This document shows, one piece after another, positions 14,883-56,020 of a stretch of DNA of 64,000 nt. Numbering within the stretch: the first letter of the stretch is position 1; the number at the start of each line of letters is the position of its first letter. Under the pieces are notes generated by a model. It ran no database searches. It was not told where the DNA came from and saw only the letters and a program-made list of their open reading frames with translations. The DNA is from Psammoneis japonica (Eukaryota), in assembly GCA_008632985.1 (NCBI GenBank), contig QPGO01000115.1:62001-126000 (forward strand), read 5' to 3'. A program made the position numbers and the translations under genes.

Positions 14883-16499
14883 GACAGGATACTTATTCTG
14901 AAGTACAGTATGGTTTCGGATGTGTCGGAGTCAGTTGCGTTGTTTCTGACAGCTGCTGAAAAACGCCATTTTGTGGGTTAGATAAGTGAGAGAGATAGAT
15001 AATAAGATAGATCGATGTTGGAACCTGAAAAGGCCAGGAGCCTAAAAGACATCGACGAGACCAGAACATCGCCCACGCGCATGTAGACTAATGTGCTGCA
15101 CCGGCAGCCAACCTCAAATAAACCGCTTCAATTATGAACAGGATTGACAGCAAACGGCAACGAGAAAAACTAGAACGAAGCCGAGAAAGAGCATGGAAAT
15201 GAGAGTAAGGATGAGAACAAGGATGCCAACAATGTGAAAGGCCGTGGTGTCGGCAGCGGCATTGGTGAAAATGCATCAGGAACAAGAAGGAAAACACTGT
15301 GGGGTGAAGCAGCACAACAAGAAGTGGGGGGCAGTGGGAGAGAAAAGGTTGCTCTCCACAAAGCATGAAAGTTGACCCCCCACAGAGTGCAGCCCAGACA
15401 CACAGCTGCTTCTAGAGAGGGGGTCTCTGTGGTTTTGTGAACCACACCCCCAACAAACTGTGTGTGCCTGTTGTCCCCCAACCTTTTTGTTTTGTTGGAA
15501 ACAGCTGTGGAAGAAGAGCCTGGTGGCAGCGGTGTGCACATGCTGCCAGCGGGGCACAGACAGCATCATGAATCTGGGCACTGCACAAAACAGCTGTTGA
15601 GAAAGTGACAAAGGGAAGCAACCCCAAAGTCCAAACAAGAAACACAGAGGCTCCCCAAGCTTCCACTCAAGATGATGCCAAAATTCACAATGGGACAAGA
15701 GGCATGGCCGCATGGTGCACATGACAAGATGGAGAGCAAGCAGCAGCCAGCAAGCACCAACTGCGCAGCTTTCACCAAGACAACACAAGAGACAACGGAT
15801 TTTGTTTGGGACACGCTTGACAGCAGTGGCCACACAAAAGGGGCGGCCGGTGGAGCCACTTGCTGCTGAACATGATCTTTTGCCATGCTGAGAAGCCAAA
15901 AACTCAAAAGAAGGGGAAAAGCAGGAGGAGACAAATGGCCAGGCCACCAGGACAAAGAAGCTGCACCAACAAAATGCAAAAGAAGCACACAACATTGTCT
16001 GGGAACAGCACGGCAATGCAGCGAGATCTGGGATCAAAACAAACAAGGAGTGGAAAGCTGTGGCCACAGAGCTTTTGTGGGGCCATGGTCTGCCCAAGAT
16101 CATCAGATTGGTGTGTTGTTTTTCACAATTTCCAAACAATGAAGAAAATCACATTGCCAGAATTGTGCTGGCTGCACCATGAGAAACAGAGCAAAACAAA
16201 AGATGAGCAAAGTGCTGAAATGAAAATTGTGACCAGCTTGGGTGCCAAGCAACTGAGATGCTCTGCAGTGTGGTCCAAGAACTCCTCTCATTTTGCCAAT
16301 CAGCCAGAACTTCCCAGGTTGCATGAAAAACATGCTTGCAGCCAAGTGTTCTGTGCAAAATGTTCTCAGTGCTTTTTGTCTGTGTCTTGCAATGTGCTCC
16401 AGTGCTCACAATCTCCAAGTCTGCAGCTCTCAGAGAATTGTCTCCTGTGGCACATTTTGGCACTTGCACCAATGCCTTCACATGTGCAATTGTCAGAGC

Positions 16500-19400
16500 T
16501 TGCTGAAGGTGTGTCTCTGACAAACACTGCTTTTTTTCTGCCAAATGTCAGCAAGTGTCACTCCACAAAGCCGGGCTTGTCTTTGACTGTGGTGCAGAGC
16601 TCTCAGCATGGTGCTGCTGTGCTCGTCCCCTCCATGATTTGGGCACAGCCAGGGCCATTGATGACTCCCTCTTTGAGCAGTTTGAGCCATGTCACATGTT
16701 TGCTGTGTCCAACTTGCTGCCTCTTTTGATTTGCATTGCAGCATTGCCAAATGCTTTTGGCAATGGCATTTGGGCCATTGTGCAATCCTTTAATGCCAAA
16801 GTGGTGCTTTGTTGTTTTTGTCATGTCCCATGTTTCTTCACTCTTTTCTCACTCTCTCCTTTTTGTCAGCATGCTTTGGTTTTTGATTGGCAACATGCTT
16901 GCAATTGAGTGTCATGTGCTGCACCTGAAAAGTGTGCTGGACAGAAGAATGTGGATGAGGAGAGCATGGAACGACAATGGTGCAGTGGTGCATGAATGAA
17001 AAGGAGATCATGAAAGGCAAAAATTGCACTGCATTTTGTGTTTTGTTGGAAACCACAATTCTGGTCTTGGACCAAAGGAGTGGCTTTTGGGCTGGTCTGT
17101 TTGCAACCACAACTGTGACCAAGCAATGTGCACATTGACAATTGTGGCACAGTTGTTTTGCATTTGTGGGTGTTTTTCAATCCCAGCACCTGATTTGCCA
17201 ATTGAGAGAATGATGGCAGAATTTGTTTTTTGGTCTTGATGCAAAGTTGTCATGAGACACTGTCTGTTTGCAACTCACCAAAGTTGGCTTTTTGAGCTGC
17301 ATGGTTTGTGTGCAACACATCTTCAGTGTGTCAACAACTTGCTGCTCTGTGTCTGTTCAATGCACGCTTCCTCTTGTTGCAATCACCTGTGCATGCTGCA
17401 GAGAGTGTCTCACATCTCTGCCAAAGACTGGAGCTGGGTGCAGCCATGGATGCCACTCTTCTAAAAAGACCTTTTGGATCCATGCATGTGTCTTCAACTT
17501 CACAGCTCCTGACCACATTGCTTGTGACTTGGTGGGTGTGCTCAGTTTTTGCTGTAGAGCATCTGACAGCTGTGGTAAATTTGCACCTGACAAACTCACA
17601 TTTTCAGCCACATGCACCCCCTTTCATCATTGTGCTCAACAATTTTTTGCAGTCCAGTGGCAGGGGTGCTCATGACAACAGCTTGAACCTTCAAAGGCTT
17701 CCTGCTGCTCTTTCACCTTGCATGTGGGCCAGTTGGGTCCACACAGTGTCTTTTTCAAGGCTTGGCTTCTGCCTGTTCAAGAGGCAAATCATGTCTGTGC
17801 TTCTCATGTGTTTTTTCATGGATCTCACACACTGGACATTTGATGCCATGACTTGGGTGTCTTGTCTTCTCTCACATTCAGCCAGGGCAAGTGCCATTGT
17901 TGAGTGAATGCTTCTGCCCTGCTTGTGTCTGGATGCAACAGGCAGGTGCCACACAATGTTTCAACATGGTCTTGCAGTGCTTGCAGGATGTCAAAATTTT
18001 TCCTTTGTACATTGCTGGTGCTGTGGATTGTTTGCCTCCAGAAAAAACATCAGCACAGCAACTTCTGGGTTGCACTGGTTTGGAGTGACATTGTCTTGGC
18101 ATTGAGCCTTGTCAATGGCACCACACTTGCAGTGGAAGTGTGACTTTTGACAATCCTTGGTGTCTTGGTGCTCAGCACATTCAATGGCTGTGTTAATTTT
18201 TTCAACTGTTTTGTCAACATCTGGGGCCAGCTGAGAGTGCTGGGAACGACAAGGTTTGAGGAGCCCTTGACACACCACACATGTGGGCTGACTCTTCCAT
18301 TGCAAGACATGTTCTTGTGACATGCTCATCATTGATTTCTTTGTGAGCAAGTCAAGATTTTTGTGGTCAGTGTGCACACAGTTGTTGTTTGTGATGACCA
18401 GACAGAATGCTTTCAAATTCTTTGGGTGTTGCTGTGGTCAATGGCAGGTTGCTCTCTCTCTGCTGTCACACACCTGCTGTGCCTTGTTCTTGTGACATGC
18501 TCAGCATTGATTTCTTTGCAAGCATGTCAAGATTTTGTGGTCAGTGCATGCACAGTTGTTGTTTGTGATGACCAGACAGGTTGTTGTCATGGTTGACAGC
18601 AAGTTGCTCTCTCTCTCTCTCTCTCTCTTCTCTGCTGTCACACACCTGCTGTGCCTTGTGCAACTTGCAGCTGTGGAAAGCAATTTGACAATTTTCTTAA
18701 CTTGTGACAGCACCAAGCTGTGCTTGATCTCCATCTGCAGACAACAAGAAATGGCTCATTGAAGTTGGGGCAGACATGACAAAACACATCTTTGGTGAGC
18801 AAACATTGCCCTGCATTTGTCCACTTAACATGTGCAGGCCTGCTGCTCAAAGGTGCTGGAATTTGAGAATGTCTTGGCCACATGTCTCTGCAGCAGCTCA
18901 CTCTGCAGCAAGAAGAACAAATGTCTTGTTTCTTTCTGCATCGTTGGTGGTTTGAAAGCATGGGTTGCCCCCCACTTTTTGAAGCAGCAGTGGTTTTAAA
19001 CTCAGCAGAAAGCAGCTTTCTGCATTGATTCTCAAACTTGCTTGTTTGTCTCATTGGAAGATCTTTTGAAGTTTTTCAGATGACCACAAAAACCACCTTT
19101 TGCAGCAGCCAGCACACCTTTGAGATGGAGCAATCCATTGAACTCTCCACCAAAGCAAGAAGCTCAGATGCATGTTCCTGAAACACATCCTCCTGGGCTG
19201 TTGCAGGCTCCCGCCATTGGCAGTTGGAGAACTGAAATTGCACTTTCTCCCTGTGGACTCACACAATGATGTGTGCAGCATCAGTTGAACAAGGCAGCAC
19301 CCCAAATTTGCACCCAACAATGTCATGCAAGCAAACCCTTTGAGTTGATGAAACAAAAAGTCTTGCATTTTTGGCAGGGGGGGGGGGGGAGGTTTCCTTT

Positions 19401-19900
19401 TTATTCTTTTGTTGAGTCCCCAAAGCATGACACTGGAGCCTTGTGTTTCTTTTTTCAATCTTAAGCTCTTTGCACAAGAAGCTGCTGTGAGAATGGCTGC
19501 ACTCATTCTGCTGCCCAGCAAGATGTGAGCAGGGTTCAGTTTTCTCTTTTCTGGACTTGGAGTTTTTCGTCCCGAAACTGTGGGTGTTTGATGCCCCCAA
19601 GTTGACATCTTTTTCTTGTTTGGAATGGAAAAAGCCCACCTGATTTTTTGCTGGATGAACTTGAGCTGTGTGTGCATTTAAAGTCAGACTTTGCTGAGGG
19701 CAAGTTTTGAAAATTGTTCACTCTGCTTGCCATCAAAGTCGCTGTCTTTAGCAGCTGCCCTGGCTTGCTCATGTGCATGAGTTTTTGAAAATTTTAACCC
19801 AGTGGTGCCCAGCTGGCACCTTCATCATCTTTTGAAGCTGAGCCCAACCGTGACTTTGCAGCTCATTTCATGATGTCCAGTGCATTGAGCATTGGCACAC
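16500..19900 (-). mobile_element. Heavily mutated Ty3/Gypsy pol remnant (RNase H-integrase); boundaries approximate
   Basis: VHTDHKNL and ACTDHK (VYTDHKNL) followed by QEHVLQW (QRVLRW-like), and the integrase C-terminal PVFGRDV (LVFGRDM-like), in RNaseH->INT order on the minus strand. Confidence 0.65.
18311..18660. repeat. About 175-bp tandem duplication inside the Gypsy remnant, with a (CT)n expansion near 18607-18628
   Basis: gttcttgtgacatgctca...gtgatgaccagacag and tctgctgtcacacacctgctgtgccttgt each occur twice. Confidence 0.85.
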
Positions 19901-20399
19901 AGAACAACATCTGCTTTTTTTGTTTGTGTTGGCTTCAACCAGTTGTGTGCTGCCACTCTCAGCAGTCTTTGCAGACAGCTCAGTGCCAGCAGCACATGAG
20001 CTCTGCCACTCCAGCCCAGCAGAATTGGGCTTTGTCTTGTTGGATTTTTCCCTTCTGCTGGAATGCTGTTTGTCAAATGTTTTTCCAGAAGCTCCAGACA
20101 TTGCATCAGAGTGCACGAAATGTTAAAAATGTGTGGATTTGCATGATGACAATTTGTTAAAATGTTGCAAAACATTGTTGTCAAATGATGACAGGCCAAC
20201 CTCTGGTTGCAAGTTTGGTGTGCCAACATTGCAACAACTCATTGAGAATCATGTGTGCCATTTTTCACTGTGCCCACATCACCATTTCTGCCTCCACCTT
20301 GTTGCCACACGCCAATGCGTGATTGCATTGCCACACAAACCTTGGTTTGTCAATTTTGGTGAACATTGTTTTAAACAAGAAAAACATTTCATCGGTTGA

Positions 20400-23300
20400 G
20401 TCAATTCCTTGTTGCGTCTGCAGTGCAATGACCGAGTGCCATGTTAACTGTGCACATGTTTTCTTGCCACAACTCTCTTAAACTGAGCCAACAATCATCA
20501 TCGGACTCGTCTTCATTGGACTCATCTTCATCGGACTCATCTCCTCCGTTGCTTGTTTTGCCTTTTGCACCTTCCTCCTGCTCATCGTCATCACTGTTGT
20601 CACCCCTGCTGCTCTCCACCATTGGGCTGTTCATTGCCTTCACCTTCTCCGCATCACCGGTCGGTGCTGTCTTCTTCTTCTTTTTTGCTTCTCCGGACTT
20701 CTCGCACTCGCTTTTCTTGATCTCCGCATGCCACTTTTCAAACTCCTTGCCCTCCTTGGAGTCTCTGTCTTTCGTCACCTCTTTGCACAAATGTTGAACC
20801 GAATGATTCCATTGTCTCCCCAAGACACTCGTTGTTTCTTTGGCTTCGTGTGCCAAGGGGCAGGCCTTGTTTCTTCGGGCTCCATTTCCTCACCCAATTC
20901 TTCCACCGCCTCCTCCTTGTTCCTGCATGCCCACACCTGCCAACAATTCTCCATGGCCAATGGTGCCAAAGCTTCGTCACCTGCCGCAAACAACTGTGAG
21001 ACCTGTGCATTCCCAGTTTTGACGGTGCTGCTCCATGCCTGCTTTTGCTTGGTTTGAGGTAGGATGTGATCACAGAACCACTTGCGTGCCTGCTTGTTCC
21101 TTCGTTTGCCGCCGGTGACAGTGTCTGGGCCAAACAGATCCCATGTTGGCACAAACGGGATGTCATTCTCTTCATTCTTGTCACGGCTTGACTTTTTCCT
21201 GGTTTGCTTTTTCCTCCTGACTGCCGCCTTGAGTTTCTTTTCTTTTTCCTTTCCCTCTTCCTCAGTGACAATGCCTGTGTAGACAAAGCATCACCGTCAT
21301 CTTCTTGTGAGACACACGCAACTCTCGAATCACACACATTGGTCACTCAACTTACGGGCCATTGCCTCCGCCCCAACAGCCGAACACACCGTGTTTCTGC
21401 GATTGTCATTTGCCTTTTTACCGCCTTTTTTGCCCATTCCTCCCAAGTTCCTGACCAATTTGAAGTGTCCATGTTGCCACCAGCAATCTGTTTCTTCACA
21501 AACATTGAGGCGCTCCCATTGCTTGCCAACTCTGACGGACTGAGAAACTTCACCTGTGGAAAGAGATTATTTCCAGCCACCTTCTCTGCTTCTGATTTCA
21601 ATGCACCATGTGCTGCCTGCGCACCTGTTCTCTTCAACACTGCCTGAAGTCTCAGGCTCATTGGCTCAATGGTCTCATTTTTCTTTCTCTTCTTTGCCGG
21701 TGGTGCTGGAGACGACATCTTGATCTTTGCATGGCAACAATGAGAGCAGTGTCACTGTTTGACAGTGCAACCGTCATCTGGGTCGTGTTGAGACAGCCAG
21801 CCACTCTGTTTTTCTCTGTGACATTGCACAAATTGTTGTCAGCAACATTGAAATTTGAAAATGTGTTTGTGCAACAATGAACAGTCCAACTTGCTTTTTG
21901 ATGTGGCTGTCATTGCGTTTCAACGGAGACAATGTCCTTCATTTTGACAGCAAATAAAAAAGAACAATGTTCACTGTAAATGCCAGATAAAAAATCAAAA
22001 TGCAGACACGTCACACCCACAAGAATCATCCAAATCTGGAAGACAATGTAATGTTTGCCATTTTCCCGCCATTTTTTGCGTGTTGTTCTTCTTTTCCCTT
22101 CTCATCCACAAGACAAGGACGACAAGTGTGAGTCTTGATGAAGGCCCTGTCAACATTGACCAGAGAACTGTGAGGCAACGGCATCAGCGTGCAGACTTGG
22201 TCAGTCGCTGGCAGCTTGATCACAAATAAACAACTGGCTTTCAATGCCTGAGAAGACTCAGCACTCACCTGAGTTGCGGGTTGTCCCTGTCAAAGCAATT
22301 GGGGACAATGTTTTGGTTTATGAAGAATGTCCAGGAGCAGCAGAAGCACAAGAAAAGGCCCTGTTTGTTTGGGCCACACAGGACAGAAGGAAGTGTTGGT
22401 CAGATTTGTTTCTAAAATGGGACACGCGCATCAATCCATCATTCACTCACAGTGATTTCCCAACTCTTTCTTGCAAACATGATGAATTTGATCCTTTCAG
22501 AATCAGCAAAGTCATTGCGGTGCACGTGAAGCAGTGCGGCATGAGCACCTTCCGTTGCTTTTGTTCTGATGTCTTCTTCGGAAACTCCAAGACAAGCTTC
22601 TTCCTGATCGGAAGGCTTTCCCAACCACCATTCTTGTTGTTCTTGGGTTGCAAGGTTGCTTGCAAAGAACAAACTCGCACGGCTCTTTGCAGCATCATTG
22701 TCCATTGTGCATGTGTCGAACACAGCCGATGATTTCTTCCATTGTTTGACAACCTGGAAGAAGGTTGCAAGAGCAAAGGGAATCACTGTGTCCCCCCCTT
22801 CTTCGTTTTTGGAGAGCAAGGCCCGAAGATCAAATAGATTCTGGAAAAATTGAGTCGTCCCAAAACGACTGTCGCACCACTCTCCATCTGGCATCCAGCA
22901 GCAGTCCAACATGATTTGGTCGAACCCATGATTGTCAAAATCAACAAGTTTCTCAAACTGCTGCTTGACTCTCTTGACGAAATCTCTTGCTTTCACATTG
23001 CAATTTAAGTGCAGATCAGGATGGCCGTCTTGGAGAGAAACTGTTGGAACAACGTTTGTGATTGTTTTGTCAGATTCCTCAAATGCCATTGCGCGGGCCT
23101 CGTCTCGCCTGTGTTGGTCGGACGACACTAAGGCCACCCCCTTCTCAGAGCACAACTCTTGAGAAGATAGTTGCCTTGCATTGAGCGGACGGGTCATCCC
23201 AACCACAGCACATTGTGTGTTTCCCCGTTGGTTTCGTCACTTGCGAAACTGTCTCCCAAGTTGCTGTGGTCCTCTTCACCCTCGGAGCAATGTGCAACTT

Positions 23301-27830: not shown

Positions 27831-28099
27831 TGTTTGGCTTGTCGTTAAAGATCGTCAGTTGTTGTGAAAAAGGCAGAGCACAAAAATTAAAAAACATCTG
27901 TGTTCAAACATGAAGAACAGCAGGAGATTGACAATTGGCCAAATGACAAAAACCGTCATGTGCAGACAAGTAGATTTTATAATGTGGCAATGTGTTTTTA
28001 TCATGTGTGCAGATGTTATGATGTCGTGCACTCTGATGCTTCACAGATGTTCACAAAACCAACCAAGGAACATCTCACAATGTCAAAGCTCTGAGGAAA

Positions 28100-30030: not shown

Positions 30031-30151
30031 GGTAACTAGCTAGCAACTAAATGCTGAATAGTGAAGAGGATTCGTTCCCCCAGTGGTTTCACAGTAACAA
30101 ACTACACTATGCGTTACAATCAGCGACATTTCCAACCGTCTGGCTCAGACG

Positions 30152-31465
30152 CTAGTCCAACGGGATGCCAATCTTTTTCATCAATGCAACTCCGATAATT
30201 GCACCAGTGAGATAGTAGCCGAAGGTAGCTTCAGGGGATAAGACAGGATTCTCCGCATCTCCCAGTATTGAGTTGTAGGAAGAAAGGGTGACCTCATCGA
30301 AGAAATAGTCTTCATCTTGCAAGGCCAGGTCAGTCTCACTCTTTGTCACCTTCACAGACGGAGATTTCTTGCGACAAAACCCAATGGTGCGGTTACACAC
30401 GCCGGGCAATTGCTCACCGAGTTCGCTCTCGCTGAGTAGTAATTCTCGCTGCCGAGCCGCCAATAAGAACCCTTGCTGTTTCGTCGCCAAGAGATCAGAA
30501 ATGTGCGTTGAAGTGCCTTGCTTCAGACTAGGGAGGCCCTCGAGAATGTCTTCCCGTTCATCCAATACCTTGATGAAGCGGCCCTGGTAGAAAAAGCCGA
30601 CACTCACGTAGCAAAGAAACAAGGAAGCCAAGGAGGCAAACTCCTTGAGTCCCTTACGCTTTCGGAACACGGCCATTTCGATAAACTCTTGGCATTCTCC
30701 TTCTTCCTCCATATCCTCGACTTGGTCTTCTTTTTCTTCAGATATCCAGCCGAATACGCCTCCCGACAATCGAGCCAGAATTAGGCTGAAAATCAATACT
30801 ATTAGGTTCACGGTCTCGTCCATTCCGAGGTCCTTGGTTGGCTCGACAACGATGAGAGAAAATAATTCAAAGCACGCAACGTGTGTGAAGCAAAAGACTA
30901 GAAGTCCGAACGCCCCAGGGATGGCGTATTTCATTTCAAACTTAGCTTGGCGCCGGAGCCTTTCGCAGAATGGGATTGACGTCGAAGTTCCAGAGACGGT
31001 GGATGACTCTTCATTCTTCTTCTTCTTTGCCGGTGTAATGGTCTCCTTGCTCTTGGTGACAGAAGGTTTGGTTGTGTTAGCTTCACTCTCCTTCTCGTCC
31101 ACTCTGTCATCACTACAGCTCGTAGTCTCCTTCTCGTCCACTTTGTTGTCACTATAGCTAGTAGAGAGCTGAAGCATGTACTTGCGAAAAGATTCTTCGT
31201 AGTCATTCAAAAGCTTCATCTCCTCTTTGCTAGTGGTATTCTCGAGCAGTCTCAACATTCCTTGTCGCACCTTGAGATGCTGCTCGATGGTGTCTTTATT
31301 AGCAAGTTCCACCGTCGATTCTTTGCTGTGGAAGTTCGTCTTTTCGGGTTCAGGGCCGTCTTGGCGTTCTTTCTGACTTGTGCTCTCAGACAACGTTGAT
31401 TTCTGGCTCGTTTCGTCCTCGTCCGAACCATGAACCGGGGTTAGAAGTTTTTGTAAGGGAGCCAT
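30152..31465 (-). CDS. Unknown multi-pass membrane protein, copy A (437 aa)
   Basis: Intact ORF with a charged N-terminus and about 4 hydrophobic segments; near-identical paralog at 40466-41755. Confidence 0.8.
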   Translation of the reverse strand: MAPLQKLLTPVHGSDEDETSQKSTLSESTSQKERQDGPEPEKTNFHSKESTVELANKDTIEQHLKVRQGMLRLLENTTSKEEMKLLNDYEESFRKYMLQLSTSYSDNKVDEKETTSCSDDRVDEKESEANTTKPSVTKSKETITPAKKKKNEESSTVSGTSTSIPFCERLRRQAKFEMKYAIPGAFGLLVFCFTHVACFELFSLIVVEPTKDLGMDETVNLIVLIFSLILARLSGGVFGWISEEKEDQVEDMEEEGECQEFIEMAVFRKRKGLKEFASLASLFLCYVSVGFFYQGRFIKVLDEREDILEGLPSLKQGTSTHISDLLATKQQGFLLAARQRELLLSESELGEQLPGVCNRTIGFCRKKSPSVKVTKSETDLALQDEDYFFDEVTLSSYNSILGDAENPVLSPEATFGYYLTGAIIGVALMKKIGIPLD

Positions 31466-32530
31466 ATCTTCGACGACTTATCAAGTGGTGACAGGTATTT
31501 CACGGTGCTGTTATTTTTGATTGGTTGGTAAACAGGTTCAATTGCAAGTCATAGGTACCGGTAAGGGACTGAGGAGCAAATTTTTGTGTTCTGTCTTGTG
31601 TGGCATGTCCTTCAGGTGTCGTGTCGATGATGGTGAATATTTGAATGATTGTGAGCGCGTGCGTTGAAGGTTGGGCACGGGCGGTGGGGTTCGCAAAAAG
31701 AGGCGGGAAAACTCTCTCTTTTTTGATACTGTGTAGAAAATATACACGACCTCATTATCCATCCGCGACCAAGCAAACCTGATAGTACCTCCATACGATC
31801 TAAGTGGTGATTCCCGTAGAGAATCAGGCGTACCAACGGGACTCGAAGGCAATTTATGTTTACCTCTATAAGATAATTATTACTTTCGATATACATCATC
31901 CATGCTGGAGAACACAAACAAACAGAGCGACGACCCAACGGCACAATACTCCTAATACTTCATAACTGCTTTCCGTTGGCTCCATTATTTGCTTTCCGTT
32001 CAATTTTGAATAACTTTCGTATGTGCCGGTAGTGTGGAAGTTTCAAGCACTTTTGGTTTTGAGGTAGTCGACGTGCGCACTTGCGACCGGTCCGACTGGC
32101 GCAGTTCGTTTTTGGTCATGTCTCTGTGCTGCACCTGCTGCACCGTGCTTCACCATGAATGACCAAATGGTGGATGGAAGACAATTTTGTCACTTCATCC
32201 ACACCAGAACAAGACCCAACACAAACAAACAACACAGCAGCTGCAGACTGAGGGCACTTTACCATCTTGTGTTGCAGCAGTCAAAGCAGCTTGGATTTTT
32301 TGCTTTCACAGAAAATGTGTGCTCAGTGGCGGCGCAAAAGAGACTGAGCTCCCAAAGAGCAAAGCTGTGCTGCACAAGCTCATCACAGCCAGGTGATGCC
32401 TTGGAAACACACACCTCAGGTTGCGCACAGCAAATCAACAAACAGACCAGTGTTTTGGCACATGAGTGATCCAAAACATGTGCTGTTGGTGACTCTTTGG
32501 GAAAGAAAGCAAAGAATCCTTGCTCAGCCA

Positions 32531-32762
32531 AGTCGAAAGACAGTTCTGTCGTGTGACAGGAAGAGAGAAGCTTGCGCAGGTTGTTTGCAATGCAAACAGC
32601 ACCAAGGCATGCAGACATTGTTGTTGTTGCTGTGCTGTTGTTCAAAGGATTGTGGCAAAATTTTGTTGCAATTTTAACAGCTGTTTGAGTGGTCAGCTGA
32701 ACAAATCAATGGGTCTGGGTTGCAGTCATGTTCTGCAACCAGAATGATGTTCAGTTGTGACT
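32531..32762 (-). repeat. 3' LTR of the Copia element (232 bp)
   Basis: Aligns with 39449-39677 (shared gtctgggttgcagtcatgttctgcaaccagaatgatg); adjacent to the PPT. Confidence 0.85.
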
Positions 32763-35700
32763 CTCCTTCTCAACCAAAAGAGCTTGTTCACCAGCCCATC
32801 AGAGCCTTTCTGGCCATGCGGAACACATCTGTCCACAGTCCCTTCATGAACTGATCAGCCAGTTGCTCTAGAGTGCTGACAGGTTGGATGTCAAACTGCA
32901 ATTGTTCGACCTTTGTCCCAAACCAATGATGCAGGACACCAATGTGCTTAGTTCACAGAGACAACTTGGGCACATGTGCAAACTTGAGGGCACGCAGTGT
33001 TGTCTTTGCACACAACGGACGCAGGCAGGATGTTCTGCTTGATGGGCAAGTCATTGGTGCCTTTTTTGGTGAGCTCAAAAGCCTTGGAGAGTGAGTCATG
33101 ATGGGGTTGCGGTGGTCAGACTTTCCAAATGCACAATGGTGGAGCTCCTTCAGAACTTCACAAATGGGGATGAGATTGCACACAGCCTGCAACAGCATGA
33201 CATGCTCCACTTCCACAGTGGACAATGCCACAAGAAGAGTCCGCAGCATGGACACCTGGACAAGTGGACAGCCGGCACAGTGGACAAGGCATCCAGTCCT
33301 GAACTTGACTGAAACTGGGTCTTGCCCATCTTCAACACCAAACAAGCCTGTGAAGTCAGAATTGACATGACAACCAACTCGATGATCTTGCGCAGGCTTG
33401 AGCATGAGACTGTCAGTGGCAGCAGCCTTGAGGCATCAGAGCATCCGCTGCTTCACTGCAGCAGCATGGGATGCTCGAGGTGCAAACAAAAAACATGCAA
33501 CTTGATGTGTTGCATGTGCAACATCTGGCCGGCTGTTTGCAGCCAAGTGCATCACCATTCCAACAACTGAACAACAATTGCAGGGTCAACCGAAAGTCAG
33601 GCCATCCTCCGTGTCTGTGCCAACATGTGCAGGAACAGCTGGAGTGGCAGCTCTGTTGCAATCTTCCATTTGGGCAGCGCGCAGGACCTTGTCAATGAGA
33701 CCAGGTTGAGTGAGCAGAAATTGACCATTGGAGAGCTTTTTGATCTTGATGCCAAGAAAGTCACTGACTCCTCCTTCATCTGCAAGTTCAAACACATGGC
33801 GATGCTCATTGTCAGAGACTCCTCCTGGCTTGCAAATTTCCTCCTCCAGAGCTTCTGCTGACACACCAGTGAACACCATGTTGTCAATGTGCATGACACA
33901 CATCATGCCTTCCTTGAAGTGTGGGCATGGGTCTGTGGCTGAAGGTGCCCATCCGTGCTTGATCAAACCATCTCACAGTTTCTCACAAAAACACTTTGGA
34001 GACTGCTTGAGGCCACACAGTCCTTTCAGTGGCTTGAGGACCACATTGAGTCCCAACCTTGGCACAAAACCCTTGGGTGGTGATGGCGGACTTCTTTGGC
34101 AATGTCCGCTTGGCAAAAGGCTGTGGTGTGGTCTGCTTGACATGCAGTCCATCTCTCTTTCAATGCAGCAGTGAGCATGAGTCAAATGCTGGACCATTGC
34201 ACTGCTGGCACGCATGTCTCAAAACAATCTGTGCCCTCTTTCTGCAGATCACCATGGGTGCAGTGCTGGGACTCATGCTTCAAAGGCATTCCATCTGGTG
34301 GCCTCTTAAGTTTGAAAGCCCATGTGCCAGGGAGTGCACACATCTTCAGTGGTGCATTTCACTGCTTTCCAGGCTTGATGGTGGATGAGCACATTCACTT
34401 TAATCTTCATTGCCTTGATCCACTCTTTTGCATCCGGGCCCATCAGAGCATTGTGTGGCAAAGGCACACTGGGGTTCTTGGTCTTCTCACTTGCTGCATG
34501 AGCCCTGGGAATGCCAACATTGCATGCACACCAGCATCCAAAATGGTCTCAAGAGCAGCCAGACAAGCCAGCTGAGCTTGGCATCTCATTGGCACCTCTT
34601 CTTCCTTGACGGAGCTAAGAAAAACTTTGTCCATGAACTTGGCAGAATGGAGCTGTCCCTTGGTTCACCTGGAAGACCTTTGAAGAAGTCCCAACTCTCC
34701 CTCTGAATTCACCATTGGAGATGCTTTGACTGGAGCAGGTGCTGTTGGTTCAGAAGGTGCTTCAGGTGGCGGAAGTTTGTCACTTTCCTGAGGTGGAGGT
34801 GGCTGAATTGGCACAGGCTCTGCAGAGTTTGCAGTGTCTTGAGTTGCAGGTGGGGCTGGGGGCTGAGTTGGAGTTGGTGCTGGAGTCATGGGCACAACTT
34901 GATTTGATGCATCATTGAGAGGAACAGCTGGATCCTGCACAGATGTCGATGGAGTTGGTTGGAAATTGCCTCAAACACAAGTCTCTCTGACCAGTTCTTC
35001 TTGCTCCTTGCATTGGTGTTCAAGAGGAGTGAGCCACTCATTGTGAAGATGGATTGTCTGGTCTTTCTCCAGAGGGATGATGAAAATCAACTGCTTGTGA
35101 CAAAGTTGCTTCCAGTGGTCAGATGGATCCATCTCCCTCTTGATCAATGGTGCAGCAGTGAACAGACAATCAAAAACCACACAATGCTGAGGAGCAATGC
35201 TTCCAGTTTGAAGATTGAGTGCAAGGGGTGCCTTGCTTGAATGGATTGTTCTCAAACCAACAAAAAGAGCATGGTGAGCACGTGGTTGCCATTGAGGCAG
35301 TTTCTTCCCAGAAGCAAGTGCCGGGTCAAGAATGCACGCTGGACAACCCCATGTGTGAATGTCTTGCAAGTGATGCCAAGGCACCATGGAACCGGTGAAA
35401 ATGTCTGCTGGGCAATGCCCTTGTGCATTTGGGGTGATGTTGCAGATGTGCGTGGCACAAGATGCAGCTGTGGGTCACAGTGAACTGTTGGCCCCTCCCT
35501 TCCAATGAATTGATGCATGTGGGAGCATCGCTCTTGCCATGTTGGAGACAGAACAAATGCTGCACTCAGCAACCCTGCTCTGGTGATGGGCATTTGCACC
35601 ACAGATTCAAAGACATTGCTTGTGCTCCCTCACATGCTGGACAAAAGAGTTGGCCTTAAAGTGCCGCTGTCAGCAAGAAATTCTTGAATGATGACCCCAT

Positions 35701-37600
35701 GGTGGAGAGCATCATGTTTCTCAAATGCTTGTTTTGCTGGAATCATCTCTGCAGCAGAGAAACCCAGTTGATGTTCAACATGGAGGCAGCCTGAGGCATG
35801 GTCCATGAAGATGCAGACTCCCTTGAATTGTTTGGACATGGCTTCACTGCATGAGTCACAGGTTTGGCCTGGGAGGTGTGACTCAAAATGATCAATGCTT
35901 GTAGCCTGACCCAGTCACAAATGGTCAGGTTTCAGGGCCTGTCGTGCTCAGGGACTGCTGTCTTGTGGCAGAGCCCAGAGATTGTTTGTGACCTTTGGCA
36001 TGCTTTGCATCTTTGGTGGTCACACTTGGCCACCAACTTGAACCAATTTGACAAGAAAGAAACTGAACGGAGAAGGGCTTGGACGCGACCAAAGTTCAAA
36101 TGACCAAAACAGGAGTGCATCTCTGACAAAAGCTTCTGACCCACCATCAGATTCTGGTTTTCTTTGTTGAGAGCAAGCAGGTTCATTTGGGGAGCTTCAG
36201 AAACCCCCTTGGTCATTGACACAATGGGCAAGTGGCTTGAGGCATGACATGGCACTTCCAACTTCCCTGAGCCGTCAACACAAAGTCTGAAACTGTGCTG
36301 GTTGCCTTTGCACTTCCCACAGACACCCTTTGCTTTGTTGAAGAGATGCTGTGGTGACAGCAGACCTTGTTGGGCCCCAGGGACACAGTGCACCATGGCA
36401 TTCAGTTGGATGGTGGCACCGCTAGTGTTGTGAAGATCCGCGTGTCTTCATCATGAGAGACAGCCAATGTGGCACCAGTGTCTGTGATGACAGCCAGACT
36501 CCAGACTCTTGTCCAATGGACCGATGAGTGCCTGTGGATTGGTTGCCAACAGCTCGGCTGGGATGTGCCAGTGAGGAACTGGATGGTGGATGCATTGCAG
36601 ACAACTGGCCCAACACATGCTTCTTTCAACAGAGGCAACAGGATCTTGAAAATGAGCAGCATCAACAATGTGATGAGGGACACAGAGCTTGTCAAATTGG
36701 AAGGAATCAGAGCTGAAGTCCTCAAGCATGTCAAAGAAGCACTTCTGCTCATTGAGAGGCTCCAATTCCTCATGGGTGTTGAAGAAGGTTGATTCGTCAA
36801 TCAAGTCTGACCATTCAACTGCTTCTTGGGTCTTCCAGTGGCTTTGCAGACACTTGCTCAGTGCTCGATGGGTGGCACATGACAAACTTGGTGAGCACCT
36901 GCATGCCCTTGATCTTGTTGCATTCAAACAGAGATCCAGCATCTGACACAAAACCCAGTCATCTAACTCCTCCACAATGTTGCAGACCTGAGAGCTGGCT
37001 GTCGAAATTGGCTTGGCACATTCATGAATGGGCACTCAGGCTGTTGACTGACACAAACTGCAGATCATGCCATGACTGTGATGGACAGGACCATCCAAGA
37101 GGCTGGAAACCTGCACAAGGTGGGGAGTTTGTGTTGGCAATGCAGAGCTCAAGGGACACTTGGGATCAGAGCAAAGCAGACATGTGGTGCCGTTTCCCAA
37201 AACACAGCAGCAAGCCAGAATGCAAAGAGTTTGGCTTGTCCCAAAATTGATCGACACAAAGAGAGGTCTCTTCTTTGTCACACTCATGACAATCATCCAC
37301 ATCAAGGTTCTCTGGATCATAAAAATCAAAGCCATGGTGTGCAACACTTGATGGCAAGTCATTGCACGCATCTTCAAAGTGCAACTCATGTTCAAGAATG
37401 AGGTCCAGCTTGGCGGTGTCTGACAGCATGTCTGCAAGGTTGGCAGGTGCATCACAGAACTCATCTGAGTGCTTGATGGAATGCAGCTTTGAGGCTGGAA
37501 ACAACTCAATGGCCAGTGGTTTGTTTTCAATTGCAGACAGAGCATTGGAGCATTCACAAAAGTCATTGGCATCTTTGGGAGTGACGGTCTCAACCACAAT

Positions 37601-37662
37601 TGGAGACATGACTGGAGACATGACTGGATCCACAACTGGATCCACGACTGGATCCATGACTG
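37601..37662. repeat. 12-bp tandem repeat (about 5 units) in the gag-pol linker
   Basis: tggagacatgac tggagacatgac tggatccacaac tggatccacgac tggatccatgac; encodes PVMDPVVDPVVDPVMSPVMS. Confidence 0.85.
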
Positions 37663-39448
37663 GGCAAGTGTTTCGTGAGCTCAATTTGATGCAGTTCTCC
37701 TTGAAACTGACTTCCTTGTTGTTCTCCCACTTGGCTGAAGGGGCTGGAGCAACTGTTGCTGTCACAGCAACAGAGGTGGCAAGAAAACTTGGGTCATCAA
37801 TGGCATCCGTAGCCGCACACCACACACCCGTGTGCACCAACTCGTTGGGGTCAGATTCCTCCCCATCAGGCTCCTTGACAGTGTGAGCTGGTGGCCCCAC
37901 AGGCACACCGCTGTCAGGATTGGAGACTTGGGATGGGTTGCCCACTGGTGTTTCCTTGGGAGATCTCTTGAAGTTGTCCTTGTGCTCTGTGGCAGAGTGG
38001 TGTTGGTGGAGGCCAAGCTTTTCAGCTCCTTTTGCCACACACTTGGCACACCACTTCCATTCCTTCCCATTCTTGTTGGCTGTTGTGTCCCCATCACATT
38101 TCACACACCATGCCTGAACCCTTTTCTTCTTCTTCTTCTTCCCACCAGGGTCATCAGCAGGCATTGGATCCAGATTGGTGTCCTTTGGAGGGGGCTTCAG
38201 GTTGCACTTTGGACAGTTGTGCTGCAAAACACTTCTTGGCACTGGCTGGATTGTCAGACATGGAGAGGCTCCCTTTGGGAAGTTTTGCCACCAAAGCTGG
38301 CCATTCTCTGTCCTTGATGAGTTCAGAGTGCTCCTCCTGAATCCATGCAATGATTCCGACCAGTCTGAGAATGGCGCAGTCAGTGTCCAACTTGACAGCA
38401 GCAGGGCCCTTGAGGCAATGCTTGCGTTCCATCTTCTTAACATCATCAATCTTGTCATGCACTGAATGATTGAAGTGCTTGGAGGATGCATTTGAAACTT
38501 TGTGCAAGATCTTGGACCCAACATTGACCGGAACCGCACAGTCAGTCTGCATGATCTTGAGGATGTGGAGAGCTTTGGCAGCAAAGTTGGTCCAGTCTTC
38601 ACTGGGATGGGTGGCTAGAGCAAGCTCATCTGGGTCCTTCTTTGCACTCTCAATGTCAGCTGGAGCACTGGTGTTGCATGCATCCAGAGCCATCATGAAC
38701 AGCACTGAGCCTGGACAGTTCTTGCAGTCCTTCAAGTGGTTGAACTTGGTCTCCATTTTCTCGTGGAAGGTGTTCGTGATTCTTGATGGAACCAGCAGCT
38801 GGGACAGCCAGATGTTGTCAAGCTTGATGTCATTGTTGGCTGAGCCATCCAAGGCTGTGGAGCAAGAGGAGCGTTCTGCATGAAGGTCCACTGTGGAGAA
38901 CTTGTGGAGGTCATCAAAAATGCACACGGCAGCTCCATCCAATTTCTTGACATGGCAGAACATCTCTTGTCCATGAGCCTCAACTGGATCTTGGATGGTC
39001 TTCATGAAGGCATCCGTTGAACTTGGAAGTCATTGTGGAAGCTTGTTGATCTTAGAAAGAGCGCTTGATTGAATCAAGAGCTTTGGGGTGACAACACTGG
39101 GATGCGAAACAGGCAGGTCACAAGTGTTGTTTGGCTGGCATGGATCCGCTGACACAAACTCTGTGAGTCTGATGAAATCCACTGCAAATTGGTTGGGTTG
39201 GTTGTGGTTGGTTCTGGAGTTGCATTCCGGAGAAGATTGTTGTGAGTTGCTGCATCAACACAGCATCTGGAGCAGCACCAGTGGTTGAGGATGCAGTGGG
39301 AGGTGCAGGAGATGCCATGGTTGGATGTGAAGGCAGAAAGAGCAATTCAAATCAGGAGCTGCTTTTCCAGGTTTGCTTCAAAATCATGTCTGTGACAACA
39401 AACTCAGCCAGGAGCTTGGCACCAATGCACAAATTAGTCTCTGTGACC

Positions 39449-39677
39449 AGTTGAGAGACAGTCCTGTCCTGTGATGGGGAGAGAAAAGCTCTCGCAGGTT
39501 GTTTGCAATGCAAACAGCACTGAGGCAAACAGACGTTGTCATTGTTGTCTCGTTCCAAAGATCATGGCAAAAGTTTGCTGTGATTTTGAACAGCAATTTA
39601 AAAGCAGTTGGCTGAACAAATCAATGAGTCTGGGTTGCAGTCATGTTCTGCAACCAGAATGATGTTTGGTCGTGACT
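39449..39677 (-). repeat. 5' LTR of the Copia element (229 bp)
   Basis: Aligns with 32531-32762; lies just upstream of the gag ATG. Confidence 0.85.
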
Positions 39678-40465
39678 GGCAACAAGAGCAACTTTGCAAA
39701 ACTCCAGAGAGGTCTTTCACTGTGCTTGGCTGTGCTCTTTGACATGATCACTGCCAGTGCAATTTTGGCTTTGTTGTTTTGCACTTTTGATGGCATTCTT
39801 TGCTCCACAACAGGGCAAAAACAATGCTTTGTTGGCACAGATGAGCTCTGGGAAAGACATTTGTGCAGCAGGGGCAAGGCTTTGCAAGGGCAACACCAAG
39901 AAGATGTGCTGTGTGCCCCCAATGTTTTGCTGCAGAGTGGTGACCACATGGGATTCAGAGGAGTGTCACTCCCACTGAACATGAAGAAGGGGGTGGGGGT
40001 GGGGCAGAGGGCTGGCGAAATTTGGCAGCATGTGAGATTGTGGAGCAGGCAGAGGGCAATGTGAGAACAGCCAAATTCCTGGTGCCGAGAAAGTCAGAGC
40101 AGCCGTGCTGCGGGGTGGGACAACAAGAGCAGCTGTGCAAGGGTGGGACAACATCATGGCTGGATGCACATTTCTTGCAAGCGACAACAAGCGAAGTGGA
40201 AAAGTGGCAAAAGGATCGCAATGATTTGGCCCTCAGACAAACTCTAGACTGCAAGGGTCAACACCCCCCCCCTGTTATCGTTGTGCTGCAGACAACAAAA
40301 AAGCGATAGATGAGCAGGAACGCAAGTACACACCGTGCTATCACCCATAGCTAGCAAAGTAGATGCTGTAGAGTGAATGGGATTCATTCCCCGTGTGGTT
40401 TCACAGTAACAAACTCTATATTATGCATTGCAATCGGCAACATTTCCAACCGTCTGGGTCAAACG

Positions 40466-55159: not shown

Positions 55160-55190
<31 letters not shown>

Positions 55191-56010: not shown

Positions 56011-56020
56011 CAATGACTCA

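What the first reader, a model, noticed from the sequence alone, without database searches (positions are those of the whole stretch)
15300..40310. Repeat-targeted TpA->TpG/CpA hypermutation: candidate adenine-directed RIP-like genome-defence system
Seen: TE-derived domains are almost free of TA. I count about 15 TA in 15300-19900 by eye (about 290 expected at uniform base use) and none across ~15414-16789, while the neighbouring genes have ordinary TA. Conserved Tyr codons become Cys or His: Copia RT YVDD reads cac att gac aac (HIDN, 33880-33891), LYGLKQ reads LCGLKQ (~34015), and RNase H CYVD and AEY read CHVN and VEH. Established: 5mC deamination explains CG->TG/CA, and fungal RIP is C->T and creates TpA; neither removes TpA. 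Inference: a second process converts A->G 3' of T on either strand in silenced or repeated DNA. Candidates are a TadA/ADAT-like DNA adenine deaminase, a modified adenine or thymine, or Pol eta-type error-prone repair (WA hotspot, as in somatic hypermutation). I know of no described diatom system like this, but I could not search the literature.
Basis: partly seen in the sequence, partly recalled or inferred. Interest (0 to 1): 0.95.

Follow-up and report, generated by a model that had tools for sequence, protein, structure and literature searches.

The report
TpA-erasing hypermutation of diatom transposons
In this diatom genome, silenced transposon DNA has had almost every TA dinucleotide converted to TG or CA, a mutational genome-defence signature so far reported only once, in an unrelated alga.

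Summary
Six sharply bounded blocks (28.6 kb of the 64 kb) have TA observed/expected of 0.06, against 0.60 in the rest. The loss of TA plus CG (71.6 per kb) equals the gain of TG plus CA (71.1 per kb). Contigs of a sequencing run hold the TA-free sequence at single-copy depth, so a basecalling artefact is unlikely.

The direction is shown four ways:
- All 6 conserved Tyr codons of the Copia pol are now Cys or His.
- A second repeat family shows the same change.
- The two LTRs differ by TG opposite CA.
- In a tandem duplicate cut by a block edge, 8 of 10 TA in the unaffected copy are TG or CA in the affected copy.

The process acts after integration, on both strands. It is independent of the degree of CpG decay and is set by position, not by duplication. 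New detail: TTAA is spared (P = 1.6e-19), which gives a target T-A-(not A). AA is untouched, which argues against polymerase eta.

The host is a diatom. The same kind of TpA hypermutation was reported in 2026 for integrated viruses of Bigelowiella natans, so this is a new member of a very recently described kind. The enzyme is unknown; a DNA adenine deaminase is the leading guess.

The parts
15206..29941 (.). Largest TA-poor block, composite. 15206-20000 and 28001-29941 are also CpG-dead (CG O/E 0.09 and 0.07). 20001-28000 keeps CpG (O/E 0.50-0.77) but has TA O/E of 0.08-0.09.
   Evidence: no Pfam family found in 20-25 kb read-through frames or in ORFs of 130 aa or more
23874..27854 (-). Run of long minus-strand ORFs (344, 221, 206, 500, 205 aa) of an unknown repeat family. 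25000-28334 is high-copy in run X1 (summed depth 5,000-14,700 against about 55 for single copy). The 500-aa ORF 25748-27247 has one relative, P0271, 47% identical.
32065..40245 (.). Second TA-poor block. It reaches 466 bp and 567 bp beyond the Copia element on either side.
32531..39678 (-). Degraded Ty1/Copia LTR retrotransposon.
   Evidence: tblastn with 67 full-length Copia polyproteins covers 32779-36444 on the minus strand; RVT_2 match; LTR pair
32531..32763 (-). 3' LTR (as far as similarity is detectable).
   Evidence: 80% identical to 39449-39678; 8 of 14 adjacent double mismatches are TG opposite CA
39449..39678 (-). 5' LTR (as far as similarity is detectable).
32626..34203 (-). RT plus RNase H reading frame, read through with X at stops. 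6 of 6 conserved Tyr codons are now TGY (3) or CAY (3).
33880..33891 (-). RT catalytic motif YVDD now reads HIDN (cac att gac aac on the minus strand).
424..1463 (.). Small TA-poor block (TA O/E 0.09, CG O/E 0.55).
46339..47289 (.). Small TA-poor block (TA O/E 0.03, CG O/E 0.32).
54708..56837 (.). TA-poor block whose right edge cuts through a tandem duplicate.
56026..56515 (+). Copy A of the tandem duplicate, inside the TA-poor block.
56633..57108 (+). Copy B of the tandem duplicate. It is TA-poor up to 56837 and TA-normal beyond. 8 of its 10 TA beyond 56837 align to TG or CA in copy A.
61163..62700 (.). Small TA-poor block (TA O/E 0.04, CG O/E 0.20).
30010..31698 (-). TA-normal gene, paralogue of 40318-41994 (unaffected control).
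40318..41994 (-). TA-normal gene, paralogue of 30010-31698 (unaffected control).

Best explanation
Shown. After insertion, transposon-derived chromosomal domains of this diatom undergo a DNA-level mutational process. It converts A:T to G:C specifically at TpA, on either strand, so each TA ends up as TG or CA. It runs to near saturation. It is sharply limited to positional domains that cover the transposons and a few hundred flanking bases. It is separate from the CpG-to-TpG/CpA decay that affects the same domains to very different degrees. It prefers T-A-Y, then T-A-G, and largely spares T-A-A, so TTAA survives. Because TA>TG/CA can never create a new in-frame stop, it destroys proteins by missense changes (every Tyr becomes Cys or His) while the reading frames stay open.

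Inferred. This is the same kind of process as the TpA hypermutation of integrated viral DNA seen in mutation-accumulation lines of Bigelowiella natans. It serves as a genome defence that irreversibly inactivates mobile DNA. The agent is most likely a DNA adenine deaminase of the TadA/ADAT2 type, recruited to silent chromatin: adenine becomes hypoxanthine, which is read as G at the next replication.

My odds are about 0.9 for the process as described and about 0.45 for the adenine-deaminase step.
For: Dinucleotide budget. TA loss of 36.9 plus CG loss of 34.7 per kb (71.6) equals TG gain of 37.7 plus CA gain of 33.4 per kb (71.1).

Real DNA. Contigs of run X1 cover the TA-poor blocks at single-copy depth (about 50-66). 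Seven listed pieces of 944-2,307 bp show 0-4 other letters each, for example 34636-35657 with 0.

Direction.
- Of 104 columns conserved among 150 Copia homologues, 6 of 6 Tyr columns are changed: 3 to Cys (TGY) and 3 to His (CAY). 72 of the other 98 columns are kept.
- Of the 32 changed columns, 11 are explained by one TA>TG/CA step, 11 by one CG>TG/CA step, 3 by another transition and 3 by a transversion; 4 need several steps.
- In the second family, the 18 Tyr of P0271 that align to the window ORF read Cys 6, His 2, Phe 4, Tyr 1 and other 5.
- In the tandem duplicate, the 10 TA in the unaffected part of copy B read TG 5, CA 3, TT 1 and TA 1 in copy A. Of 17 CG there, 9 are kept.

After integration and on both strands. 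The LTR pair differs by 8 TG/CA double mismatches. There is no sense-strand asymmetry (P = 0.13 and 0.08).

Independent of the degree of CpG decay. TA O/E is 0.00-0.09 in all 12 sub-blocks, while CG O/E ranges from 0.07 to 0.77.

Context. 31 of the 103 surviving TA are TTAA, against 55 of 1,434 outside the blocks (P = 1.6e-19). Retention by the 3' neighbours of the two adenines is AA 0.70, AG 0.15, AC 0.12, AT 0.07, GG 0.12, CG 0.09, and CC, CT, GT and TT 0.00-0.014. A-TA-A sites gain CA (3.64 per kb), not TG (0.50 per kb).

Elsewhere.
- Three of the 150 database Copia proteins lack Tyr and carry Cys or His at conserved Tyr columns.
- 2 of 79 metagenomic Copia loci have TA O/E of 0.01 and 0.07. 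In the partly depleted L042, at least 30 of the 49 TA have TAA on one strand.

Precedent. bioRxiv 10.64898/2026.01.13.699255 (abstract, sections 11 and 12, and passages of 7-10 read).
Against: - No enzyme could be sought, because no whole genome is held.
- The context rule fits a thymine-directed agent (V-T-A) equally well, since it is the complement of T-A-B.
- The library type of run X1 is not on record, and X1 may come from the sample that was assembled, so technical independence is inferred from depth and contig length only.
- The flanks beyond the LTRs could be older transposon fragments and not spreading.
- Simple additive 3'-neighbour rates under-predict the survival of CTAG and CTAC/GTAG (my arithmetic on the figures), so a further position may matter.
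- In the second family, 4 of the 18 aligned Tyr are Phe and 5 are other residues.
- I could not show that the process is active now. The only hint is two TA/TG-CA polymorphisms between X1 and the window, at 29360 and 29425.
Confidence: 0.5

Rival explanations
1. Thymine-directed route. A JBP/TET-type dioxygenase oxidises T at TpA in silent chromatin to 5-hydroxymethyl- or 5-formyl-uracil. The oxidised base mispairs with G or is repaired wrongly, giving T>C, which reads as A>G on the other strand.
For: - The context rule is symmetric: T-A-(not A) on one strand is (not T)-T-A on the other, so the data cannot tell which base is attacked.
- Both strands are hit equally.
- Recalled, not from a call: 5-formyluracil mispairs with G, and dinoflagellate 5hmU is enriched at TpA.
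Against: - No evidence of such a base in this organism.
- Polymerase-read contigs show plain G/C at the sites, so these are fixed mutations and not a standing modification.
- The only experimental precedent proposes adenine deamination, also without proof.
Confidence: 0.2
2. TA was lost once, in a master element, by mutation or by selection to escape a TA-directed defence. TA-free elements then amplified, so most of the signature is inherited and was not inflicted on each copy.
For: - The family at 25-28.3 kb is high-copy, and many X1 contigs match this TA-free copy (608 of 2,735 at 99% or more).
- Among the differences shown for it, the high-depth ones are CG-type and not TA-type.
- TA>TG/CA never creates a stop, so TA-free ORFs stay open: a 500-aa ORF here and the 2,061-aa Tyr-free P0123.
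Against: - Catalytic Tyr residues are lost (YVDD reads HIDN), so the Copia copy cannot be a functional master.
- The two LTRs of one element chose TG against CA independently at 8 sites.
- Host-derived duplicate DNA is converted up to a positional edge.
- Unrelated families and non-coding flanks are all affected.
- Most laid contigs are only 90-95% alike (978 of 2,735), as independent TG/CA choices would give.
- Only 40 of about 270 differences were shown, so this rival is not excluded for the high-copy family.
Confidence: 0.1
3. Error-prone repair synthesis by a Y-family polymerase (Pol eta, WA hotspot) in heterochromatin.
For: Recalled: Pol eta makes A>G errors at WA motifs, with TA favoured.
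Against: - AA is not depleted and AG is not enriched in the blocks: AA/TT is 61.5-94.5 per kb against 77.1, and AG/CT is 49.7-73.5 against 63.5.
- Conversion is near-complete and strictly at TpA, with a 3'-neighbour rule.
Confidence: 0.05
4. Sequencing or assembly artefact. Modified bases at TpA and CpG in heterochromatin are systematically miscalled, and the DNA really has TA.
For: - One modification-swap idea would explain both TA and CG reading as TG/CA.
- The library type of run X1 is not on record, and X1 may be from the same sample as the assembly.
Against: - X1 contigs at about 55x depth and up to 315 kb long hold the TA-free sequence with 0-4 differences per piece.
- The copies carry a frameshift in RT and substitutions of other kinds (10 of the 32 changed columns).
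- The same signature is in separate metagenome assemblies and database proteins.
- The process was seen as de novo mutations in B. natans lines.
Confidence: 0.03
5. Editing before integration: ADAR-like A-to-I editing of retroelement RNA, or deamination of the cDNA, copied into the genome on retrotransposition.
For: Recalled: ADAR prefers a 5' U. The largest identifiable target here is a retrotransposon.
Against: - Both strands are hit equally (Tyr to Cys 3 and Tyr to His 3; no sense-strand bias).
- The two LTRs, identical at integration, differ at TG/CA sites.
- Flanks outside the element and a host-derived duplicate are converted.
- Recalled: ADAR favours a 3' G, whereas TAG is less affected here than TAY.
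Confidence: 0.03

Closest known systems
TpA hypermutation of integrated NCLDV and virophage DNA in Bigelowiella natans (Mettrop et al., bioRxiv 10.64898/2026.01.13.699255, 2026)
   Same: - Almost exclusively A>G and T>C changes, only at TpA, giving TpG and CpA.
- Directed at foreign or mobile DNA.
- A long-term footprint of TpA depletion with CpA+TpG enrichment in clustered 1-kb windows.
- TpA-depleted coding sequences are enriched for reverse transcriptase and DDE endonuclease domains.
   Different: - Host: a diatom (Stramenopiles), not a chlorarachniophyte (Rhizaria).
- Targets here: an LTR retrotransposon and unknown repeats, not giant-virus inserts.
- Depletion here is near-complete (O/E 0.00-0.09), against Rho 0.45 for their NCLDV region.
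- Here the rate was not measured, only the footprint.
- The 3'-neighbour rule (TTAA spared), the post-integration LTR evidence and the positional edges are not in their main text: a term search found no 'TTAA', 'trinucleotide' or 'flanking'.
Fungal repeat-induced point mutation (RIP)
   Same: Irreversible mutational inactivation of mobile DNA by transitions in a dinucleotide context, leaving a dinucleotide footprint confined to repeats.
   Different: RIP is C>T, mainly at CpA. It creates TpA and stop codons, lowers G+C, and is triggered by duplication. Here the change is A>G at TpA. It removes TpA, cannot create stops, leaves G+C unchanged, and spares a 1.7-kb duplicated gene pair.
5-methylcytosine deamination at CpG in methylated transposons
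   Same: It occurs in the same blocks and has the same products (TpG/CpA). It accounts for 11 of the 32 changed conserved columns.
   Different: It cannot remove TpA. Its extent varies tenfold between sub-blocks, while TpA loss is uniform. A neighbouring CpG does not protect TpA.
TadA/ADAT2-ADAT3 tRNA adenosine deaminases and the engineered adenine base editors derived from TadA
   Same: Recalled: the natural target A34 always follows U33, and TadA's own substrate is U-A-C. That matches T-A-Y here. The product is inosine, read as G.
   Different: Natural substrates are tRNA loops. Action on chromosomal DNA domains is not established for any natural enzyme outside the reports cited in the preprint. 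No such gene could be examined here.

Membership tests
TpA-targeted hypermutation of foreign DNA (B. natans type) | Changes are almost exclusively A:T>G:C transitions | tested here: met
   The TA loss is balanced by TG+CA gain. 8 of 10 TA in the unaffected duplicate copy read TG or CA in the affected copy. All 6 conserved Tyr codons read TGY or CAY.
TpA-targeted hypermutation of foreign DNA (B. natans type) | Confined to TpA, with both TpG and CpA as products | tested here: met
   Only 2 of the 32 changed conserved columns are A>G or T>C outside TpA. AA/AG are unshifted. TG and CA gains are 37.7 and 33.4 per kb.
TpA-targeted hypermutation of foreign DNA (B. natans type) | Directed at integrated foreign or mobile DNA, not host genes | tested here: met
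   The blocks hold a Copia element and a high-copy repeat. Host genes between them have TA O/E of about 0.5-0.7. What the CpG-dead parts and the four small blocks once were could not be identified.
TpA-targeted hypermutation of foreign DNA (B. natans type) | De novo rate raised about 1000-fold in the target regions, in some lines only | not testable with these tools
   This needs mutation-accumulation or pedigree sequencing. The only hint is two TA/TG-CA polymorphisms between run X1 and the window in single-copy TA-poor DNA.
TpA-targeted hypermutation of foreign DNA (B. natans type) | Same enzyme or common descent of the system | not testable with these tools
   No genome is held, and the enzyme is unknown in B. 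natans too.
Fungal RIP | C>T transitions that create TpA and lower G+C | tested here: not met
   TpA is removed and G+C is unchanged.
Fungal RIP | Triggered by sequence duplication | tested here: not met
   The paralogous genes at about 85% identity over 1.7 kb show 19 TA-type differences among 220 and have normal TA. A block edge cuts through a duplicate.
A-to-I editing of retroelement RNA before integration (ADAR-like) | Changes on the transcribed sense strand only, fixed at integration | tested here: not met
   Both strands are affected. The two LTRs differ at TG/CA sites.
Pol eta-type WA-hotspot mutagenesis | A>G at AA as well as TA | tested here: not met
   AA and AG frequencies are not shifted.
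Ty1/Copia LTR retrotransposon (for the element 32531-39678) | RVT_2 reverse transcriptase with integrase upstream and RNase H downstream, flanked by LTRs | tested here: met
   RVT_2 E = 1e-9 and 4.5e-7 in two frames. tblastn of Copia polyproteins covers 32779-36444. phmmer best hit E = 2.4e-93. LTR pair of 233 bp. The target-site duplication could not be confirmed.

The most novel reading that the evidence does not exclude
Diatoms and chlorarachniophytes, and by the metagenomic hits other marine protists too, share an ancient chromatin-targeted enzyme that deaminates adenine in double-stranded chromosomal DNA at T-A-(not A). If so, it is a natural DNA A-to-G editor used as a genome defence. 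It kills transposons and integrated viruses by missense saturation without ever creating stop codons, and it runs faster than CpG decay.
Probability: 0.3. Interest if true: 0.92.

Novelty: new member of a known kind. Interest (0 to 1): 0.75.

Why it matters
Mutational genome defence has been known in cellular eukaryotes essentially as cytosine deamination (fungal RIP, APOBEC, 5mC decay). An adenine- or thymine-directed counterpart was first reported in 2026, in one rhizarian alga.

Finding its saturated footprint in a diatom, on ordinary LTR retrotransposons, would show that the process is not a peculiarity of one species or of giant-virus inserts. It may instead be a widespread way for marine protists to neutralise mobile DNA.

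The findings also have practical uses:
- The target rule found here (T-A-Y favoured, T-A-A spared) and the positional, chromatin-like edges give concrete handles for finding the enzyme.
- If that enzyme is a natural deaminase acting on duplex DNA adenine, it would also interest people who build base editors.
- For genome annotation, transposons in such genomes become invisible to profile searches and yield long false ORFs.
- TA-free tracts are a simple marker for silenced mobile DNA.

Tried and rejected
- Whole-genome analysis: none is held, so no genome-wide TA/CG map, no copy-to-consensus spectra and no search for deaminases or polymerases.
- Pfam on 100 ORFs of 130 aa or more found nothing in the TA-poor blocks. 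A first read-through scan was too large to print. Read-through frames of 32.4-35.4 kb on the plus strand found nothing. Read-through frames of 20-25 kb found nothing on either strand. I did not scan 15-20 kb, 25-30 kb or the four small blocks in read-through frames.
- tblastn with 67 Copia polyproteins hit only 32779-36444, so the large block is not Copia.
- A single-protein scan of JGI metagenomes with the window's pol found no relative. The alignment-based scan then gave 79 loci.
- The sources of the Tyr-free database proteins carry no organism names.
- Earlier findings of this scan: nothing for this genome, its look-alikes or the key words.
- Literature: searches found only the B. natans preprint for this signature. 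One search failed on term syntax and was not repeated. PMC9998398 (passages read) has no occurrence of TpA.
- Protection of TpA by a neighbouring CpG: not seen (P = 0.64).
- Sense-strand bias: not seen.
- Extension of the gene paralogues' homology into TA-poor DNA: not seen.
- Rfam found 0 families and tandem repeats gave 3 minor arrays. Neither bears on the finding.
- Run X2 covered only normal-gene bins and X3 laid nothing. I take this as no evidence either way.

Full report
1. THE OBSERVATION

There are exactly 15 TA in 15300-19900, and none between 15413 and 16791, a run of 1,378 bp. Per-kb TA observed/expected falls to 0.00-0.19 in blocks and is 0.40-0.79 in most other kb windows.

From the TA gaps I delimited six TA-poor blocks, 28.6 kb in all:
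- 424-1463
- 15206-29941
- 32065-40245
- 46339-47289
- 54708-56837
- 61163-62700

Pooled figures:
- TA is 3.6 per kb (O/E 0.06) in the blocks, against 40.5 per kb (O/E 0.60) outside.
- CG is 20.9 against 55.6 per kb.
- TG is 108.5 against 70.8 per kb, and CA is 104.8 against 71.4.
- The loss of TA plus CG (36.9 + 34.7 = 71.6 per kb) equals the gain of TG plus CA (37.7 + 33.4 = 71.1 per kb).
- G+C does not change.

Block edges are abrupt. TA spacing changes from tens of bp to gaps of 200-1,300 bp within under about 100 bp.

2. WHAT THE BLOCKS ARE

The host genes in the window are GatB, PSME4/Blm10, a GH3 glycosidase, a RUS/UVB-sensitive protein, DUF3754 and three PP2C genes. All named relatives of the PSME4 protein are diatoms, at 46-56% identity: Cylindrotheca, Bacillariaceae, Seminavis, Nitzschia, Attheya and Thalassiosira. 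The host is therefore a diatom with no close relative in the database.

Profile searches are nearly blind in the blocks. None of the ORFs of 130 aa or more there hit Pfam.

The Copia element:
- Read through with X at stops, the minus strand at about 33.6-34.35 kb matches RVT_2 in two frames, so it has one frameshift.
- Full-length Copia polyproteins cover 32779-36444 on the minus strand and nothing else in the window.
- A 233-bp repeat pair (32531-32763 and 39449-39678, 80% identical) flanks it as LTRs.
- The element therefore spans about 32531-39678. The TA-poor block reaches 466 and 567 bp further on either side.

The large block is composite:
- 15206-20000 and 28001-29941 are also CpG-dead (CG O/E 0.09 and 0.07).
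- 20001-28000 keeps most of its CpG (O/E 0.50-0.77). It holds a run of long minus-strand ORFs of an unknown family.
- That family's only database relative is P0271, 47% identical, with no Pfam domain.
- In run X1 the stretch 25000-28334 has a summed depth of 5,000-14,700, against about 55 for single-copy DNA, so the family is high-copy.

3. IS IT REAL DNA?

Run X1 holds 88% of the sampled words of a query that was half normal gene and half TA-poor block.

When laid on 25000-44999, its contigs cover the TA-poor single-copy DNA at depth 50-66. Seven listed pieces of 944-2,307 bp show 0-4 other letters each; 34636-35657 has none. The neighbouring normal genes show a similar or higher density of differences: 14 other letters in the 3.3-kb piece 41684-44999.

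There are caveats. The library type is not on record, and the run may come from the sample that was assembled. The technical independence is my inference, from the even 55-fold depth and contigs up to 315 kb.

Three further lines point the same way:
- The Copia copy has a frameshift, and 10 of its 32 changed conserved columns are not TA- or CG-type changes.
- Separate metagenome assemblies and database proteins show the same signature (section 6).
- The same changes arose de novo in cultured lines of another alga.

I put an artefact at about 3%.

4. DIRECTION AND TIMING

(a) Copia pol against 150 homologues from a search of the representative-protein library. Of 104 conserved columns, all 6 Tyr columns are changed: 3 to Cys (TGT, TGT, TGC) and 3 to His (CAC, CAC, CAT). 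Of the other 98 columns, 72 are kept. Of the 32 changed columns:
- 11 are explained by a single TA>TG/CA step
- 11 by a single CG>TG/CA step (for example Arg to TGY or TGA)
- 2 by A>G or T>C in another context
- 1 by another G>A or C>T
- 3 by a transversion
- 4 need several steps

(b) The second family. P0271 has 21 Tyr in 407 residues, while the window ORF has 1 in 500. The 18 aligned Tyr read Cys 6, His 2, Phe 4, Tyr 1 and other 5.

(c) The LTR pair. The two LTRs were identical at integration. They now differ by 8 adjacent double mismatches of TG opposite CA, out of 14 adjacent double mismatches. Each copy therefore resolved the same ancestral Y-R steps independently, after insertion.

(d) A tandem duplicate. 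Copy A (56026-56515) lies inside a TA-poor block. The block edge at 56837 cuts through copy B (56633-57108).
- Beyond the edge, 10 TA in copy B align to TG 5, CA 3, TT 1 and TA 1 in copy A.
- Of 17 CG there, 9 are kept and 7 are TG or CA.
- Before the edge both copies are TA-poor, and they differ at TG/CA sites.

Other points on targeting:
- The two strands are hit about equally. Sense-strand TG against CA is 720:779 in Copia (P = 0.13) and 391:342 in the second family (P = 0.08).
- Duplication as such is not the trigger. Two paralogous genes (30010-31698 and 40318-41994, about 85% identical) have normal TA. Their 220 differences are 101 transversions, 70 other transitions, 30 CG-type and 19 TA-type.
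- TA loss is uniform (O/E 0.00-0.09 in all 12 sub-blocks), while CG O/E ranges from 0.07 to 0.77. The TA process therefore runs independently of CpG decay and, where CpG is kept, faster.

5. TARGET RULE

The survivors are not random. 31 of the 103 TA left in the blocks are TTAA, against 55 of 1,434 outside (binomial P = 1.6e-19).

Each TA offers two adenines, one on each strand. I classed sites by the 3' neighbours of the two adenines. Retention relative to normal DNA is:
- AA 0.70
- AG 0.15
- AC 0.12
- GG 0.12
- CG 0.09
- AT 0.07
- CC 0.013
- GT 0.014
- CT 0.006
- TT 0.00

The products agree with this. A-TA-A sites, where only the bottom-strand adenine has a T as its 3' neighbour, gain CA (3.64 per kb) and hardly any TG (0.50 per kb).

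The simplest reading is a strand-specific target T-A-Y, then T-A-G, and far behind T-A-A. By complement this is the same as a thymine target preceded by anything but T. Simple additive rates under-predict the survival of CTAG and CTAC/GTAG, so another position may matter.

Two further checks:
- A neighbouring CpG does not protect TA (TACG against TACH, P = 0.64).
- AA is not depleted and AG is not enriched, which argues against a polymerase-eta WA hotspot.

A consequence that follows from the codon table: TA>TG/CA can never create a new in-frame stop, because TGA can arise only from TAA. Original frames therefore stay open, other frames lose TAA and TAG, and long misleading ORFs appear.

6. 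ELSEWHERE

Database proteins. Among the 150 Copia homologues, three are nearly or wholly Tyr-free and carry Cys or His at conserved Tyr columns:
- P0123 (2,061 aa, no Tyr): Cys 6, His 4, Phe 1, Trp 1
- P0043: Cys 7, His 2, Phe 1, Tyr 1
- P0144: Cys 4, Trp 2, Phe 2, Tyr 1
- Controls keep their Tyr: P0032 has Tyr 10 and Phe 3; P0008 has Tyr 7, Phe 4 and His 1.

Their sources give no organism.

Metagenome contigs. Of the 79 loci encoding Copia relatives:
- Two are fully depleted: L048 (TA O/E 0.01) and L034 (0.07), both with TG/CA O/E of 1.86.
- In L034, 7 of the 8 remaining TA have TAA on one strand.
- In the partly depleted L042, at least 30 of the 49 TA do (TTAA 10, TTAG 8, CTAA 7, ATAA 5).
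- This is the same context rule in other DNA.

The scan's patterns came from Tyr-free proteins, so 2 of 79 is not a prevalence.

7. WHAT IS KNOWN

The searches found one report of this signature: Mettrop et al., bioRxiv 10.64898/2026.01.13.699255. I read the abstract, sections 11 and 12, and passages of sections 7-10.

In mutation-accumulation lines of Bigelowiella natans:
- Two integrated viral regions mutate about 1000 times faster than the rest of the genome.
- In the NCLDV region 210 of 211 single-nucleotide mutations are A>G or T>C, and in the virophage region all 20 are. All the A>G and T>C changes fall on TpA.
- Hypermutation is seen in some lines only.
- TpA-depleted coding sequences are enriched for reverse transcriptase and DDE domains.
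- 124 clusters of TpA-poor, CpA+TpG-rich windows exist.
- The authors propose an ADAT2-like adenine deaminase, without proof.

A term search of the main text found no 'TTAA', 'trinucleotide', 'flanking' or 'diatom'. A paper on diatom DNA methyltransferases (PMC9998398, passages read) has no occurrence of TpA.

8. VERDICT

It is not repeat-induced in the RIP sense, and polymerase eta does not fit.

It belongs to the kind just described in B. natans. Here it appears in a diatom, on ordinary retrotransposons and at saturation, with three additions:
- a 3'-neighbour rule
- proof of action after integration
- positional domain edges that can cut through repeats and extend past element ends

Two things remain open: the enzyme, and whether the high-copy family lost TA before or after amplifying.

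Noticed in passing
window 30010-31698 and 40318-41994: Two paralogous minus-strand genes (ORFs of 441 and 434 aa, no Pfam family) sit in the same relative position, each starting about 70 bp to the right of a TA-poor block edge. They are about 85% identical and have normal TA.
   Followed up: partly
window 25748-27247 (-) and protein P0271: The high-copy repeat family encodes a protein with no Pfam domain. Its only database relative (P0271, 47% identical) comes from a metagenome assembly. What kind of mobile element this is remains unknown.
   Followed up: partly
protein P0123 (and cluster member P0392): A 2,061-aa uninterrupted Copia polyprotein with no tyrosine at all exists in ENA metagenome assemblies. 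It is an example of how this mutation type leaves very long open but dead reading frames.
   Followed up: partly
window 52952-53842 (-), 57603-58448 (+), 59645-60589 (+): Three PP2C phosphatase genes cluster within 8 kb. Two of them are about 72% identical at the DNA level. TA-poor blocks lie between and beside them.
   Followed up: no
window 52001-53000: The only kb window with TA above expectation (88 TA, O/E 1.22), beside a PP2C gene. No tandem repeat was reported there.
   Followed up: no
window 41684-44999: Run X1 differs from the window at 14 letters in 3.3 kb of normal genes, mostly transversions among those shown. The run is therefore another haplotype or strain, not an identical copy of the assembly.
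   Followed up: no
window 33276-39549: X1 contigs show many internal skips of 87-1,254 bp within the Copia element, and one join from 39549 back to 32714. This suggests deleted copies of the family elsewhere in the genome and LTR-to-LTR collapse in the k-mer graph.
   Followed up: no
window 29360 and 29425: In single-copy TA-poor DNA, run X1 has TA where the window has CA (29360), and TG where the window has TA (29425). These are two TA/TG-CA polymorphisms among the few differences there, a hint that the process may have acted recently.
   Followed up: partly
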